From a virus (taxonomy: Duplodnaviria; Caudoviricetes), in IMG/VR virus record IMGVR_UViG_3300049144_000052, positions 12,594 to 76,593 of that record: DNA of 64,000 nucleotides; one strand, given 5' to 3'. Shown here in pieces: positions 29,467 through 33,073 of this stretch. A model generated the notes under the pieces. It did not search any database and was not told the origin of the DNA. It saw only the letters and a list, made by a program, of their open reading frames with translations. Position numbers and translations under genes: made by a program. Positions within the stretch are counted from its first letter, which is position 1; the number at the start of each line of letters is the position of its first letter.

Positions 29467-29571
29467 GTGCCCGAAGAGACCCCCGAGACGGAGACACCGT
29501 TCTGGCTGTCGCCGTGGCCGTTCATCGAACCCGACCTGCCACCCGCCGAACCCGGTGACGAACCCGCATGA
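29467..29571 (+). CDS. 34-aa acidic Pro-rich peptide (MPEETPETETPFWLSPWPF..)
   Basis: GAGGAGG RBS; ends right before the terminator. Confidence 0.45.
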   Translation: MPEETPETETPFWLSPWPFIEPDLPPAEPGDEPA

Positions 29572-29599: not shown

Positions 29600-29679
29600 C
29601 CGTCGTGTCTGGTGGGGGAGTTGCGGTATCTGCTGGACGTGTTACCGCTTGATGCGGGTATGGTGGTCACACAACTTCA

Positions 29680-29755
29680 TGCACCTCCCGGTGCGCAGGC
29701 CGCGGCTACTTCTTTGGAAAAGTCCGCCGCACGCCGACTTTGATCTCGGGAGGCA
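29680..29755 (+). ncRNA. short Y RNA-like ncRNA (copy 1, Ro-binding module only)
   Basis: Terminal stem CCTCCCG/CGGGAGG enclosing CCGGTGCGCAGGC (29688-29700) and GCCGACTTTGATCTCGGG (29733-29750), both repeated in copy 2. Confidence 0.7.
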
Positions 29756-29756
29756 C

Positions 29757-29916
29757 AGCATCGGGGGTGCCCGGTGCGCAGGCAGCGGATACTTCTCCTG
29801 CTAAGAGAGAGACGCGGGTTCGAATCCCGTCCACCGGTCCAGCGGGCCGGAGGTAGCTCAGCGGCCCAGAGCGCTTTGTCTCCGCAGCCGACCTTGATCT
29901 CGGGCACCCCACTGCT
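29757..29916 (+). ncRNA. yrlA: YrlA-type Y RNA with a circularly permuted tRNA domain
   Basis: Terminal helix GGGGTGCCCG/CGGGCACCCC; T arm GCGGG-TTCGAAT-CCCGT precedes a closed acceptor stem and the D arm TA-GCTC-AGCGGCCCA-GAGC; directly upstream of a TROVE gene. Confidence 0.85.
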
Positions 29917-29922
29917 GATCCT

Positions 29923-29945
29923 CCCCTCCACGTGAGGGGCTTTTT
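29923..29945 (+). terminator. terminator-like hairpin overlapping the Ro60 Shine-Dalgarno
   Basis: CCCCTC-CACGT-GAGGGG-CTTTTT, then C-ATG. Confidence 0.65.
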
Positions 29946-29946
29946 C

Positions 29947-31584
29947 ATGACCAGATTCAACCAGCGCGGCACCCGTCCCGCCGTCCACTCGCCCGTGACC
30001 ACCACCGGGGAGCGGGCTCGCACCACAGAGGGCGCCACCGGCTTCCTGCGAGACGCAAAGTCCGAGCTCTTCCTGCTCGCCGTCTCCAACTTCGTTGGCC
30101 AGGACGCCTTCTACGAGAAGGGCGGCGACCGCGACGACCGCTACACGCAGCTCGTCCGCAAGCTCGCCATCGAGGACCCTGCGTGGACTGCGGGCCTGCT
30201 GGGCTGGCTCCGCGGCGAGGGCAACATGCGGACTGCGGCCCTCGTCGGTGCTGCGGAGTTCACCGCCGAACGACTCCTGCACGAGGCCCCCGGGTACTCC
30301 CGGCAAGTCATCGACTCCGTGCTTCAGCGCGCCGACGAGCCGGGGGAGATGCTCGGTTACTGGACCAGCAAGTACGGCCGCCGCCTGCCGAAGCCCGTCA
30401 AGCGCGGCATCGCCGACGCCGTACAGCGCCTGTACAACGGCAAATCCCTACTGAAGTACGACACCACCTCAAAGGGCTACCGCTTCGGTGACGTCCTCAA
30501 CCTCGTGCACGCAGCCCCGGACCCGGCCAAGCCATGGCAGGGCGACCTGTTCCAGTACGCCCTCGACCGCCGACACAACCCGACCGAGGCCGTCGAGCCG
30601 CCGACGAACCGAACACTTACCGCACGCCGGGAACTGATGGAGCTCCCGGTCGACGAACGGCGGGCCCTGCTGACAGCCGAGGACTGCTCCGAGCGGCTCG
30701 CGGCGGCTGGCATGACGTGGGAGGCGCTGGCCGGCTGGCTTCAAGGGCCGATGGACAAGGCGGCCTGGGAGGCGGCCATCCCGTCCATGGGCGTAATGGC
30801 CCTTGCGCGGAACCTGCGCAACTTCGACGAGGCTGGCGTCTCCGACGCGGTCGCCGCCCAGATCTGCACCCGCTTCACCGATGCGGAACAGGTCGCCAAG
30901 TCCCGCATGTTCCCCTTCCGCTGGTGGGCCGCCTACAAGCACGCCCCCTCCCTGCGGTGGGCGCACGCCCTGGAGCAGGCACTGAACCACTCGCTGGCCA
31001 ACGTGCCGCAGCTGGCCGGCCGGACGCTGATCCTGGTGGACCGGTCGCCGTCGATGTTCCCCGGCTACGGTTTCTCCACCCCGAACAGCTCGGACATCAC
31101 CCTTGCCGAGCAGGCCGCCGTGTTCGGGTCCGCTCTCGCGCTACGGGCGGAGGCTCCCACGCTCGCCGAGTTCGGATGGACCAGCAACCGCATCGACGTG
31201 CCCAAGGGCGGCAGCGTCCTCAAGCTCATCGAGAACTACGGGCAGATCGACGGCACTGACATCCCGTCTGCGGTAAAGCAGCACTTCGATCTCCTCCGCC
31301 ACGACCGGATTGTCATCGTCACCGACGAACAGACCCGTCCTGGCTGGCTGCCTTCAAACGCCTACGGACACGGCGGCATGCGGGAGACGGCGATCGATGA
31401 CCTCGTTCCAAAGACGGTGCCCGTCTATATGTGGAACATGGCTGGCTACAAGCCCGGCGCCATGCCGTCCGGGACTGCTGGTCGGCACACATTCGGCGGA
31501 CTGACGGACCACGCCTTCCGCATGGTGCCGCTCCTCGAGGCCGGCCGCGACGCGACCTGGCCGTGGATGCAGCAGCCCGCCTGA
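29947..31584 (+). CDS. rsr: Ro60/TROVE-domain RNA-binding protein with C-terminal vWA domain
   Basis: SELFLLAV..FYE, LRGEGNMRT, LLKYD, W.A.IPSMG.MALARNLRN, vWA MIDAS LVDRSPSM..TD..IVTDEQ, YMWNMAGY. Confidence 0.92.
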   Translation: MTRFNQRGTRPAVHSPVTTTGERARTTEGATGFLRDAKSELFLLAVSNFVGQDAFYEKGGDRDDRYTQLVRKLAIEDPAWTAGLLGWLRGEGNMRTAALVGAAEFTAERLLHEAPGYSRQVIDSVLQRADEPGEMLGYWTSKYGRRLPKPVKRGIADAVQRLYNGKSLLKYDTTSKGYRFGDVLNLVHAAPDPAKPWQGDLFQYALDRRHNPTEAVEPPTNRTLTARRELMELPVDERRALLTAEDCSERLAAAGMTWEALAGWLQGPMDKAAWEAAIPSMGVMALARNLRNFDEAGVSDAVAAQICTRFTDAEQVAKSRMFPFRWWAAYKHAPSLRWAHALEQALNHSLANVPQLAGRTLILVDRSPSMFPGYGFSTPNSSDITLAEQAAVFGSALALRAEAPTLAEFGWTSNRIDVPKGGSVLKLIENYGQIDGTDIPSAVKQHFDLLRHDRIVIVTDEQTRPGWLPSNAYGHGGMRETAIDDLVPKTVPVYMWNMAGYKPGAMPSGTAGRHTFGGLTDHAFRMVPLLEAGRDATWPWMQQPA

Positions 31585-32288: not shown

Positions 32289-32933
32289 CTACGGGCAGGA
32301 CTCGCCGAACTTGACCGCAGTGAACGTGACCGGCTGCCCATTCAGTGCTGCTCCCTGAGCGGGGGACTGGCTGCACACCTGCCAGTTACTCTCCACAAGC
32401 ACGAAGCGGTCCTCCGCCGACGCGTCGTTCACGGTGATCGACGTGCTCGAATCCAGCGCACCACGGGCTGCCTTCACCGACTTGCCCTTGAAGTCGGGCA
32501 TCTTGCCTCCTTCTGCCGCCAGTGGCTTCTCGTCCTTCGCTGGGCACGTCTCGTCCAGCTTCACCGCCCCGAAGTCCAGCTTGCTGCCCGTCGAAATCGA
32601 GGAGCCGGCCTTGATGTTCTGGCTGCACACCTGCCAGTTGCGGTCGAACGCCTGCATGCGGTCACGGCCGAGCGCGTCGTGCGAGGTGAGCCCGTAGAAG
32701 CCGAGTTCCTGCGCCTTGTCCTGCGCGGACTGGAGACCCATGCCGACGAAGTCCGGCATGTTCGCCTTCTCTGCGGCAGGCTTGGCGTCGGTCGGCGCAC
32801 TGCTGGTCGGGGCCGCGGGTGTTGACGGGCTTGCGACGCCAGATGGCTTGGCGGTGTCCGTTGGCTGGCAGGCGACGATGCTGACTGTGGCGGCGCAGCA
32901 GAGCAGGGCTGCAGAGATGATGCGGGTACGCAC
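32289..32933 (-). CDS. lipoprotein with two PASTA-like domains
   Basis: Lipobox VSIVA-C; twin repeats MPDFVGMGLQSAQD..NWQVCSQ and MPDFKGKSVKAARG..NWQVCSQ. Confidence 0.8.
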   Translation of the reverse strand: MRTRIISAALLCCAATVSIVACQPTDTAKPSGVASPSTPAAPTSSAPTDAKPAAEKANMPDFVGMGLQSAQDKAQELGFYGLTSHDALGRDRMQAFDRNWQVCSQNIKAGSSISTGSKLDFGAVKLDETCPAKDEKPLAAEGGKMPDFKGKSVKAARGALDSSTSITVNDASAEDRFVLVESNWQVCSQSPAQGAALNGQPVTFTAVKFGESCP

Positions 32934-33073
32934 TGATTCCCCCGAGTGATGTTGGTACAGGCGGAACACGGTAGACGAAATGTGGACGCTGCGTGAACGC
33001 GCGTCACCAGGTCGTGACACGACGACGCCCCTGCTCCTCGCCGTTGCGGCGGGGAGCAGGGGCGTCGTCGTGT

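What the first reader, a model, noticed from the sequence alone, without database searches (positions are those of the whole stretch)
29793..29873. The YrlA-like RNA holds a near-complete circularly permuted tRNA, including an anticodon-like arm (GCU)
Seen, 5' to 3': TTCTC-CTGCTAA-GAGAG (29793-29809, canonical C-U-NNN-A-A 7-nt loop, GCT at 29800-29802); 4-nt variable region AGAC; T arm GCGGG-TTCGAAT-CCCGT; acceptor 3' strand CCACCGG followed by T-CCA; a short linker; acceptor 5' strand CCGGAGG; TA; D arm GCTC-AGCGGCCCA-GAGC. This is a tRNA opened between positions 26 and 27 and joined through its CCA. As I recall, canonical YrlA replaces the anticodon arm with the stem leading to the Ro site, so a free anticodon hairpin would be unusual. 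A competing pairing (CTTT 29874-77 with AGAG 29806-09) would give the canonical YrlA fold, so there may be two conformers. A Ser anticodon on a short-variable-loop body is also atypical. Inference: a decoy for anticodon nucleases, or a permuted precursor that RNase P/ligase could mature.
Basis: partly seen in the sequence, partly recalled or inferred. Interest (0 to 1): 0.8.

Follow-up and report, generated by a model that had tools for sequence, protein, structure and literature searches.

The report
Phage Y RNA mimicking whole tRNA
Next to its Ro60 gene, a temperate Streptomyces-type phage carries a YrlA-type Y RNA whose tRNA look-alike part also has a conserved anticodon-like arm, which I did not find described in the papers I could read; it is probably not a decoding tRNA, yet tRNA finders and some phage records label it as one.

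Summary
Every element sits at the stated coordinates.

- **The hairpin is real.** 85 of 144 non-redundant relatives next to Ro60 genes have it, against 4% of shuffled sequences.
- **The loop looks like an anticodon loop.** C32, U33, A37 and A38 are nearly invariant. The triplet varies freely: 20 different triplets, and the window's near-twins carry GUU or GCC instead of GCU.
Covariation shows that stem pairs 27-43 and 28-42 use the two bases that follow the D arm. Pairs 29-41, 30-40 and 31-39 use the 5' segment. The Ro60-binding helix therefore leaves the anticodon stem between positions 28 and 29, not 26 and 27.
- **The T-CCA is not a general feature.** It occurs in a minority (7 of 82) and is base-paired in a closed 10-pair stem.
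- **What it is.** A variant of the known YrlA Y RNAs. Chen et al. 2014 appear to draw this stem-loop as a "variable arm", and Wang et al. 2018 state that YrlA lacks an anticodon loop.
- **Origin.** Part of the family is 91-95% identical to tRNA-Glu over positions 8-28, which fits descent from tandem tRNA genes.

Function is inferred, not shown: a whole-tRNA decoy or handle on a Ro60 particle. The nuclease-decoy idea is not excluded. A role as a working tRNA is unlikely. This exact feature did not appear among the earlier scan notes I retrieved from other genomes.

The parts
29679..29761 (+). Short Y RNA without a tRNA module (YrlB-like). It has the same Ro60-binding end strands and the same UACUUC motif as the larger RNA.
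   Evidence: Model R1 hit of 36.6 bits, E 4.6e-6. Fold. The same short RNA precedes the larger one in many related loci.
29762..29920 (+). YrlA-type Y RNA, 'type A' (with an anticodon-like arm); extent as matched by the covariance model
   Evidence: 175.3 bits, E 4.7e-37 with model R1 (the window is a seed sequence). Rfam YrlA local match at 29811-29872.
29764..29792 (+). 5' strand of the end helix (probable Ro60 site, with the conserved GGUGCGCAGG block) and of inner helix P2 (29785-29792)
   Evidence: MFE fold. All 5 pairs of the inner helix show changes on both sides; outer helix pairs covary.
29793..29794 (+). Two invariant U residues at the three-way junction.
   Evidence: Always U. They pair with 43/42 only as G.U wobble, with no compensating change, and mismatch when 42 or 43 is C or U.
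29795..29797 (+). Anticodon-stem positions 29-31 (inner 5' strand)
   Evidence: 29-41 is C-G in 82/82. 30-40 and 31-39 are Watson-Crick in 81/82, with 4 pair types each. In A5: one invariant pair and two pairs with changes on both sides, 99.5% paired.
29798..29804 (+). 7-nt anticodon-like loop, C-U-GCU-A-A
   Evidence: Loop profile over 85 RNAs: C32 79, U33 82, A37 76, A38 85; 20 different triplets. Position 35 is among the most variable columns.
29805..29809 (+). Anticodon-stem 3' strand, positions 39-43
   Evidence: 39-41 pair with 29797-29795. 42-43 pair with 29875 and 29874.
29810..29813 (+). 4-nt variable loop (44-48); its last base is C48
   Evidence: The Levitt pair 15-48 covaries perfectly: G-C 65, A-U 17 of 82. 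This fixes the register.
29814..29830 (+). T arm
   Evidence: Rfam YrlA and tRNA alignments. 100% paired; 3 of 5 pairs have changes on both sides.
29831..29853 (+). Closed acceptor-like stem (about 10 pairs with one A.A mismatch, 3-nt loop); the T-CCA (29838-41) lies inside it
   Evidence: Fold. 6 of the 7 basal pairs show changes on both sides. The stem is 7-8 pairs in 60 of 82 relatives.
29854..29872 (+). U8-A9 and the D arm
   Evidence: Rfam YrlA alignment. The D stem is invariant in A5. The D loop equals that of actinobacterial tRNA-Glu.
29873..29877 (+). Position 26 (G), positions 27-28 (C29874, U29875, the outer 5' strand of the anticodon stem), then two junction U residues
   Evidence: 27-43 is Watson-Crick in 80/82 (C-G, A-U, U-A, G-C). 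28-42 is Watson-Crick in 81/82 (C-G, U-A, G-C). Both are 100% paired with double changes on the unfitted MAFFT alignment A5.
29878..29910 (+). 3' strands of P2 (29878-29885) and of the end helix
29923..29946 (+). Terminator-like hairpin plus U tract, directly abutting the Ro60 start codon
   Evidence: It is a single site; the shuffles give 1.4 on average, so the scan alone does not make it significant.
29947..31584 (+). Ro60/Rsr-like gene (TROVE domain)
   Evidence: Pfam TROVE, E 1.1e-11. 40-50% identity to the 'Ro-like RNA binding protein' of Streptomyces, Gordonia and Arthrobacter phages. Up to 83% identity in viral contigs and 81% in Streptomyces genomes.

Best explanation
This is a YrlA-class Y RNA of a temperate actinophage. 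It is one of two Y RNAs encoded just upstream of the phage's Ro60 gene.

Its paired 5' and 3' ends form the Ro60-binding helix. The rest folds into a complete class I tRNA shape: T arm, closed acceptor-like stem, D arm, a 4-nt variable loop, and a genuine 5-pair, 7-nt anticodon-type stem-loop.

The anticodon stem is built from three strands. Positions 27-28 continue from the D arm, as in a tRNA. Positions 29-31 come from the 5' segment. The Ro60 helix branches out between 28 and 29.

The loop keeps the shape-defining bases (C32, U33, A37, A38), but its triplet drifts. So it presents the shape of an anticodon loop, not a codon-reading sequence.

The module most likely descends from tandem tRNA genes: the 3' two-thirds of one tRNA plus the 5' third of the next. 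It keeps the first tRNA's anticodon arm, which the canonical YrlA RNAs have lost.

What is shown here is the sequence anatomy, its conservation and its covariation.

What is inferred is the function. [quoted passage not shown]
For: **Family and context**
- A Ro60/TROVE gene lies on the same strand about 30 nt downstream.
- The Rfam YrlA model aligns T arm, closed stem and D arm. Relatives reach 35-55 bits on the full model.
- In a 151-genome sample of the class, 13 of the 18 loci holding full-length hits of model R1 lie beside a Ro60 gene.

**The hairpin**
- 85 non-redundant RNAs have it, against a 4.3% shuffle rate.
- The loop profile is that of an anticodon loop.
- Inner stem pairs are 81/82 Watson-Crick with 4 pair types.

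**The composite stem**
- 27-43 is Watson-Crick in 80/82 and 28-42 in 81/82, with compensating changes. The invariant U-U can only wobble and is broken in the 7 sequences where 42 or 43 is C or U.
- An unfitted MAFFT alignment confirms this.

**tRNA register**
- The Levitt pair 15-48 covaries in 82/82, and G45-G46 is present in 55/58 five-nt V loops.

**The triplet is not conserved**
- 20 triplets occur, and one and the same stem carries 14 different triplets.
- The triplet diverges 2-4 times faster than the rest of the RNA.

**tRNA descent**
- Partial model hits fall on tandem tRNA-Glu/Glu, Glu/Asp and Gln/Glu gene pairs.
- One sub-clade is 91-95% identical to tRNA-Glu over positions 8-28.

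**Literature**
- YrlA is modified by TruB and DusA. M. smegmatis YrlA (about 147 nt, with a 7-pair acceptor stem) is bound by Rsr, cut by RNase P and receives CCA (PMC4201824).
Against: - No expression, binding or processing data exist for this RNA or for any Streptomyces or phage copy.
- The window scores below the Rfam gathering score for both YrlA and tRNA.
- The single-sequence fold is not unusually stable (z = -1.58).
- RNAalifold prefers the simple local 5-pair hairpin.
- The case for the composite stem rests on about 7 informative sequences plus energetics. In the window itself, U28 pairs with A42 from either strand, so only the 27-43 pair discriminates.
- In low-GC phages (Alone3, BRock) the arrangement differs and the stem seems wholly local.
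- G34 and U36 are preferred despite a high-GC background, so the triplet is not entirely free. It could still be read by something.
Confidence: 0.6

Rival explanations
1. Anticodon-nuclease decoy. The Ro60-bound RNA displays an anticodon loop that soaks up or misleads a tRNA-cleaving toxin or defence nuclease. The fast-changing triplet tracks the tRNA species under attack.
For: - The conserved loop frame with a hypervariable triplet is the pattern expected for a mimic under changing selection.
- The RNA is carried by phages and prophages.
- Ro60 and YrlA are linked in the literature to RNA repair operons, and Streptomyces phage Kela has an RNA ligase gene directly upstream of its Ro gene.
- 27 of 85 loops carry U33-G34-U35. 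From memory, this is the motif cut by colicin E5-type enzymes; I did not test that.
Against: - The same RNA type sits beside Ro60 in most of the Streptomyces and Kitasatospora genome loci fetched, usually together with a canonical YrlA. It is therefore not phage-specific.
- No nuclease or immunity gene is consistently adjacent; the flanking genes differ between loci.
- The triplet changes look like single-base drift on a constant stem.
- A single-copy RNA is a weak competitor for abundant tRNAs.
Confidence: 0.12
2. Two-piece or permuted precursor of a working tRNA. RNase P opens the acceptor loop, CCA is added, and the RNA is aminoacylated and used, or is otherwise matured into a decoding tRNA.
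For: - M. smegmatis YrlA is cleaved by RNase P and gains CCA in vivo, and its authors raise aminoacylation as a possibility (PMC4201824).
- 60 of 82 type A RNAs have a 7-8-pair acceptor stem.
- The window's clade even encodes T-CCA after pair 7.
- All tertiary-pair positions tested behave as in tRNA.
Against: - The triplet differs between near-identical RNAs without matching changes in the body.
- GCU (Ser) sits on a class I body with a 4-nt V loop.
- The Ro60 helix interrupts the anticodon stem at 28/29. No bacterial enzyme is known that would remove it (Wang et al. 2018).
- In the window the acceptor stem is a closed 10-pair hairpin with the CCA paired.
- The CCA is absent in most relatives.
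Confidence: 0.05
3. The hairpin is a long variable arm, as I infer Chen et al. 2014 model it. The inner helix P2 is then the anticodon-stem equivalent, and the resemblance of the loop to an anticodon loop is incidental.
For: - The circular order of arms (P2, hairpin, T, acceptor, D) equals that of a class II tRNA (AC, V, T, acceptor, D).
- The published text places the conserved YUAY at the start of the 'V' region. Here that is the UAC immediately before the hairpin.
Against: - The two bases right after position 26 covary with the two bases right before the 4-5-nt linker. The V-arm model gives no reason for this.
- The linker is NGGYC or AGAC, with C48/U48 forming the Levitt pair. That is a class I variable loop in its own right.
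- The loop is 7 nt with conserved C32, U33, A37 and A38. From general knowledge, variable arms have 3-5-nt unconserved loops.
- Some canonical (type B) relatives carry a separate true V-arm hairpin at a different place (e.g. L111).
Confidence: 0.1
4. Conformational switch. The outer two stem pairs alternate between the local U-U strand and the strand after the D arm, for example on Ro60 binding, giving two functional states.
For: - Both pairings are possible in 80 of 82 sequences. The local one is by wobble.
- The U-U is invariant, so it is under some selection.
- RNAalifold picks the local form.
Against: - Only the D-arm-side strand shows compensating changes.
- C-G pairs should outcompete U.G pairs.
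- The invariant U-U may instead be part of the conserved UACUUC junction motif, which the short Y RNA (with no hairpin) also has.
Confidence: 0.1

Closest known systems
YrlA (Y RNA-like A; Rfam RF02553; Chen et al. 2014, PMC4201824; structure of the S. Typhimurium module in Wang et al. 2018, 10.1101/312249)
   Same: - Encoded just upstream of, and on the same strand as, a Ro60/Rsr gene, and paired with a second, shorter Y RNA.
- The end helix carries the Ro60 site.
- The tRNA-like module runs in the order T arm, closed acceptor-like stem, D arm.
- U8-A9, the Levitt pair, and the T- and D-loop bases are conserved.
- The family is known in actinobacteria and their phages.
   Different: - The Rfam consensus and the solved structure have no anticodon loop. 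There, the strand before the V loop pairs entirely with the strand after the D arm and continues into the Ro60 helix.
- Here only two of those pairs remain. A 3-pair, 7-nt local hairpin completes a 5-pair anticodon arm, and the Ro60 helix branches off sideways.
- The window reaches only 19.3 bits against a gathering score of 69.
M. smegmatis YrlA (Chen et al. 2014)
   Same: An actinobacterial RNA of about 147 nt with a 7-pair acceptor stem. Its 82-nt 5' half is the length expected if it includes such a hairpin. It is bound by Rsr, cut by RNase P and receives CCA.
   Different: I could not obtain its sequence, so whether it has the same anticodon-like loop is inferred from fragment lengths only. 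The window's acceptor stem is longer (about 10 pairs).
Class I tRNA, especially actinobacterial tRNA-Glu
   Same: - All arms, the 4-nt V loop, the 7-nt loop with U33 and A37, and 27-28 continuing from the D arm.
- One sub-clade of the family is 91-95% identical to tRNA-Glu over positions 8-28, and some members carry the tRNA-Glu loop sequence.
   Different: - The order is circularly permuted and the acceptor end is closed.
- A roughly 60-nt Ro60-binding helix is inserted at 28/29.
- The triplet is not conserved.
- It scores below the Rfam tRNA gathering score.
Circularly permuted tRNA genes of Cyanidioschyzon merolae and some archaea (Soma et al. 2007, as cited in 10.1101/312249)
   Same: The 3' half precedes the 5' half, the acceptor stem is first made as a closed loop, and the transcript ends pair with each other.
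   Different: Those precursors are cut at a bulge-helix-bulge motif by the splicing endonuclease, ligated, and become working tRNAs. No such enzyme is known in bacteria, and here the paired ends are a conserved Ro60 site.
Un-permuted 'tRNA with a Y module' RNAs beside phage Ro60 genes, noted earlier in this scan (e.g. e1-5529253, e1-5798639; unchecked AI notes)
   Same: A whole tRNA body joined to a Ro60-binding helix through the anticodon stem, beside viral Ro60 genes.
   Different: In those notes the Y module replaces the anticodon loop and the tRNA ends are open. Here the ends are closed, the order is permuted, and the anticodon loop is kept.

Membership tests
YrlA / bacterial Y RNA | Encoded within a few kb of, and on the same strand as, a Ro60 (TROVE) gene | tested here: met
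   The TROVE gene starts at 29947, 27 nt after the end of the RNA match.
YrlA / bacterial Y RNA | 5' and 3' ends pair into a helix carrying the Ro60-binding motif (GNCGAAN0-1G in Chen et al. 2014) | tested here: inconclusive
   The helix is predicted and covaries. The conserved block reads GUGCGCAGG in the window and GUGCGAAGG in many relatives, so it is close to the published motif but not identical. Binding was not tested.
YrlA / bacterial Y RNA | tRNA-like module in the order T arm, closed acceptor-like stem, D arm, with the Levitt pair | tested here: met
   Rfam local alignment. Helices covary. Levitt pair consistent in 82/82.
YrlA / bacterial Y RNA | Reaches the Rfam RF02553 gathering score (69 bits) | tested here: not met
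   19.3 bits for the window; 35-55 bits for relatives.
YrlA / bacterial Y RNA | No anticodon loop: the anticodon-stem equivalent runs straight into the Ro60 helix (Wang et al. 2018) | tested here: not met
   A conserved 7-nt loop on a covarying stem is present. This is why I file it as a variant.
YrlA / bacterial Y RNA | Bound by Ro60/Rsr in vivo | not testable with these tools
   Shown only for S. Typhimurium, M. smegmatis and D. radiodurans RNAs (PMC4201824).
tRNA (functional gene) | Contiguous cloverleaf with an open 7-pair acceptor stem; reaches the Rfam tRNA gathering score | tested here: not met
   19.9 bits against a threshold of 29. ARAGORN's acceptor and D arm are borrowed from the Ro60-helix strand. 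The true acceptor partner lies downstream and the stem is closed.
tRNA (functional gene) | 7-nt anticodon loop with U33 and a purine at 37 on a 5-pair stem | tested here: met
tRNA (functional gene) | Anticodon conserved among orthologues and matched to the identity elements of the body | tested here: not met
   20 triplets occur. GCU, GUU and GCC appear on near-identical RNAs. The D arm of a GAU-bearing copy is closest to tRNA-Arg.
Permuted tRNA genes (C. merolae type) | Bulge-helix-bulge motif at the junction and a splicing endonuclease in the host | not tested
   I made no search for the motif or for the enzyme. Wang et al. 2018 state that such enzymes are not reported in bacteria.

The most novel reading that the evidence does not exclude
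[quoted passage not shown] Its fast-evolving triplet is selected to imitate whichever tRNA is targeted in phage-host conflicts. It would then act as bait for anticodon nucleases, or as a sensor or guide that brings damaged tRNAs or their enzymes to Ro60 and RNA repair factors.
Probability: 0.12. Interest if true: 0.85.

Novelty: new variant of a known kind. Interest (0 to 1): 0.55.

Why it matters
- **It changes the description of the family.** Y RNAs of the YrlA class are described as tRNA mimics that lack an anticodon loop, and their partner proteins are still unknown. A large actinobacterial and actinophage subfamily that keeps a shape-conserved anticodon arm widens the list of candidate partners. 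These now include enzymes that read the anticodon limb: loop-modifying enzymes, anticodon nucleases and repair ligases.
- **It gives a defined element to mutate.** The arm can be deleted or altered in direct tests.
- **It supports the tandem-tRNA origin of Y RNAs with sequence evidence.** The break lies at 28/29, one sub-clade has a tRNA-Glu-like body, and model hits fall on tandem tRNA-Glu genes.
- **It has a practical consequence.** ARAGORN calls these RNAs as tRNAs at about 20 of the 39 loci I scanned. At least two GenBank phage records annotate them as tRNA-Ser and tRNA-Arg. Phage tRNA counts in actinophages are therefore slightly inflated.

Tried and rejected
- **A plain tRNA-Ser gene** (ARAGORN). 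Rejected. Its acceptor and D arm are the conserved Ro60-helix strand. The complementarity of CCGGUG with the acceptor 3' strand exists only in the window's clade. The closed acceptor stem covaries.
- **A chance hairpin.** Rejected.
- **Rfam at gathering thresholds** found nothing in the window.
- **DNA search of phage records** gave only three weak matches.
- **Mycobacteriophage or M. smegmatis sequences.** I could not reach them. The Ro proteins of mycobacteriophages were not found by tblastn with two queries. The supplement of Chen et al. 2014 and the Sim & Wolin 2018 and Burroughs & Aravind 2016 papers are not held.
- **First MAFFT alignment (A1)** misplaced the 4-nt versus 5-nt V loops by one column, so I did not use it for counting. 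I split the set by V length instead.
- **Alignment A6 (the 4-nt V group, which includes the window)** has a gap at position 28 of the linker, so I did not feed it to the pair counter. For that group I rely on the anchored parse.
- **Shared flanking genes** as a test of phage versus chromosomal context were uninformative.
- **Triplet matched to the body, as in real tRNAs.** This held only for the tRNA-Glu-like sub-clade (mostly CUC and GUC). It did not hold for the larger 5-nt V group, where a GAU copy has a D arm closest to tRNA-Arg.
Full report
**1. What is at the site**

The window is part of a 76.6-kb virus record. Tail and lysis genes (endolysin, holin) end near 29571. Then follow two small RNA elements and a 545-aa gene with a TROVE domain (29947-31584).

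This protein is 40-50% identical to the 'Ro-like RNA binding protein' of Streptomyces, Gordonia and Arthrobacter phages. It is up to 83% identical to proteins of viral contigs and up to 81% identical to proteins in Streptomyces and Kitasatospora genomes.

ARAGORN reports a 'tRNA-Ser(gct)' at 29771-29841. Rfam gives sub-threshold matches only: tRNA at 19.9 bits, covering anticodon arm, V loop and T arm, and YrlA at 19.3 bits, covering T arm, closed stem and D arm.

**2. Relatives**

I fetched 40 viral loci, 80 genome loci and 4 isolated-phage loci around Ro60 homologues. I built a covariance model from nine close relatives.

The model found 183 Y RNA-like matches. Of these, 144 are non-redundant RNAs with a T arm. 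They fall into three kinds:
- **Short Y RNAs without a tRNA module**, such as 29679-29761 in the window.
- **'Type B'**, which fits the Rfam YrlA consensus. In these, the strand before the V loop pairs only with the strand after the D arm.
- **'Type A'**, 85 RNAs including the window's. These have a hairpin between the conserved UAC motif and the V loop.

Many Streptomyces loci have type A followed by type B, then rsr. The window's clade has a short Y RNA followed by type A.

In a sample of 151 genomes of the same class, 18 had matches. Of the 18 loci holding full-length matches, 13 lie beside a Ro60 gene.

**3. The hairpin is not chance, and its loop is anticodon-like**

A 5/5-pair, 7-nt-loop hairpin lies 3-6 nt before the T stem in 86 of 144 RNAs, against 4.3% of shuffled segments.

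In the register fixed by the UAC motif, the loop profile over 85 RNAs is:

| Position | Profile |
|---|---|
| 32 | C in 79 |
| 33 | U in 82 |
| 34 | G 61, C 14, U 9, A 1 |
| 35 | nearly free |
| 36 | U 62, C 16 |
| 37 | A in 76 |
| 38 | A in 85 |

Twenty different triplets occur. One and the same stem carries 14 different triplets, so the triplets change by point substitution on a constant scaffold.

Position 35 is among the most variable columns of the whole alignment. Between relatives that differ by 3-6% elsewhere, the triplet differs at about 20% per site.

The window's GCU therefore has no 'Ser' meaning. L010 has GUU and L006 has GCC on almost the same RNA.

**4. One composite stem, not two conformers**

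I anchored positions on the T stem and D stem, not on pairing. The results over 82 parsed RNAs are:

| Pair | Result |
|---|---|
| 30-40, 31-39 | Watson-Crick in 81/82, four pair types each |
| 29-41 | C-G in all 82 |
| local U27 / U28 with 43 / 42 | invariant U; G.U wobble in 79/82 and 60/82 |
| 27-43, using the 1st base after position 26 | Watson-Crick in 80/82 (C-G, A-U, U-A, G-C) |
| 28-42, using the 2nd base after position 26 | Watson-Crick in 81/82 (C-G, U-A, G-C) |

Where 42 or 43 is C or U, the local U-U cannot pair, but the strand after the D arm has the complementary base. This holds in seven sequences, some of them from the class-wide sample.

An unfitted MAFFT alignment of 62 type A RNAs gives the same picture. 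The composite pairs are 100% paired with changes on both sides. The local outer pairs show no double change and two broken cells.

RNAalifold, which weighs energy, still draws the local 5-pair hairpin. I put the composite stem at about 80%. It also matches canonical YrlA, where the same two strands pair.

In window coordinates:
- 29874-29809 and 29875-29808 are pairs 27-43 and 28-42.
- 29795-97 pair with 29807-05.
- U29793, U29794, U29876 and U29877 are junction bases.
- Helix P2 (29785-92 with 29878-85) leads to the Ro60 site.

The tRNA is thus opened between 28 and 29.

**5. The rest of the tRNA register**

- The last V-loop base forms the Levitt pair with D-loop base 15 in 82/82 (G-C 65, A-U 17).
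- Five-nt V loops read NGGYC.
- U8-A9 is present in 76/82.
- The acceptor-like stem is 7-8 pairs in 60/82.
- The window's acceptor stem is longer, about 10 pairs with a 3-nt loop. The T-CCA is inside it. TCCA follows pair 7 in only 7 of 82 RNAs.

**6. Comparison with the literature**

Chen et al. 2014 (PMC4201824) described YrlA RNAs next to Ro60 in more than 250 bacteria and phages, and their tRNA-like module. [quoted passage not shown] They placed the conserved YUAY at its start. Here that is the UAC just before the hairpin. So I infer, without having seen their figure, that their 'V' is this hairpin.

They also showed that M. smegmatis YrlA is cleaved by RNase P and gains CCA.

Wang et al. 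2018 (10.1101/312249) call most YrlA RNAs circularly permuted tRNAs, state that 'YrlA lacks the anticodon loop', and cite a tandem-tRNA origin model.

The permutation, the processing idea and the existence of the stem-loop are therefore known. I did not find three things in print:
- the reading of that stem-loop as an anticodon arm with a conserved frame and a free triplet;
- the three-strand stem;
- the 28/29 break.

My literature access was incomplete.

**7. Origin**

Partial matches of the model in whole genomes (hairpin through D arm) fall on tandem tRNA gene pairs: Glu-Glu, Glu-Asp and Gln-Glu.

Members of the 4-nt V group with a GUCU/GGAC D stem are 91-95% identical to actinobacterial tRNA-Glu over positions 8-28. 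Their 3' part (positions 29-65) is 70-76% identical to tRNA-Glu. Their triplets are mostly CUC or GUC.

The window's clade shares the 4-nt V loop and the tRNA-Glu D loop, but has the usual YrlA D stem.

The panel of real tRNAs was small (55). For the larger 5-nt V group no matching tRNA identity emerged. I therefore treat tRNA-Glu descent as likely for one sub-clade only.

Some relatives (L001 type) have lost the local stem and re-formed a canonical 4-pair stem. This suggests that the two types interconvert.

**8. Function**

Nothing here shows function. By analogy with characterised Y RNAs, the end helix binds Ro60 and the module recruits or is recognised by other factors. The literature names TruB, DusA, RNase P, the CCA-adding enzyme, PNPase, and possibly RtcB-type repair.

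The conserved loop frame argues that something recognises, or structurally needs, an anticodon-loop shape. The preference for G34 and U36 in a high-GC lineage hints at weak sequence reading.

My odds are:
- a whole-tRNA handle or mimic on the Ro60 particle: 0.6
- a nuclease decoy: about 0.12
- a variable arm, as in the published model: about 0.1
- a switch between two pairings: about 0.1
- a working tRNA: about 0.05

**9. Practical note**

ARAGORN calls a pseudo-tRNA at the type A RNA in about 20 of the 39 loci tested. GenBank records annotate it as tRNA-Ser(gct) in Streptomyces phage Alone3 and as tRNA-Arg(tct) in Gordonia phage VanLee.

**10. Verdict**

This is a new variant of a known RNA family. 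It is of moderate interest to Y RNA and tRNA-mimicry specialists and is directly testable.

Noticed in passing
window 29679-29761: A second, short Y RNA without a tRNA module lies immediately upstream. It has the same end strands and the same UACUUC motif. The same pair (short RNA plus type A) recurs in the closest viral loci.
   Followed up: partly
window 29923-29946: A terminator-like hairpin with a U tract ends one base before the Ro60 ATG (29947). Ro60 translation would therefore need read-through or a very short leader. The scan alone is not significant (1 site found, 1.4 expected).
   Followed up: no
L123:1274-1347 (Streptomyces phage Alone3); L121:1204-1275 (Gordonia phage VanLee): GenBank annotates tRNA-Ser(gct) and tRNA-Arg(tct) here. 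Both lie inside matches of the Y RNA model directly upstream of the Ro gene. They are probably Y RNA modules, not tRNA genes.
   Followed up: partly
L129, L130, L154, L156, L145-L149: The Y RNA model's partial matches (anticodon arm through D arm) fall on tandem tRNA-Glu/Glu, Glu/Asp and Gln/Glu gene pairs across the class. This is the layout expected by the tandem-tRNA origin model.
   Followed up: partly
L030, L031, L033, L036, L014, L022 (viral contigs): Several viral contigs carry two to four YrlA-like RNAs in tandem upstream of one Ro gene, mixing types A and B.
   Followed up: no
L144:1493-1649 (-): A type A-like RNA sits inside an array of 15 tRNA genes with no Ro60 gene within 1.5 kb. 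Its stem positions 42-43 are A-A and the bases after position 26 are U-U, which is another compensating change.
   Followed up: partly
L125 (G002:C1:1896056-1896209): One Streptomyces genome has a second, high-scoring type A copy (115.6 bits) far from its rsr locus, with no Ro60 gene within 1.5 kb.
   Followed up: no
L111:1292-1458, L086, L090, L104, L118 (type B copies): Some canonical (type B) YrlA copies carry a separate GC-rich hairpin just before the T stem. It looks like a true long variable arm, distinct from the anticodon-like hairpin of type A.
   Followed up: no
L124:729-1481 (Streptomyces phage Kela): A gene annotated as RNA ligase lies directly upstream of the Ro-like gene. This fits the published link between Ro60, Y RNAs and RNA repair.
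   Followed up: no
window 32289-33020 (-): A 243-aa ORF with two PASTA domains lies downstream of the Ro60 cassette on the opposite strand.
   Followed up: no
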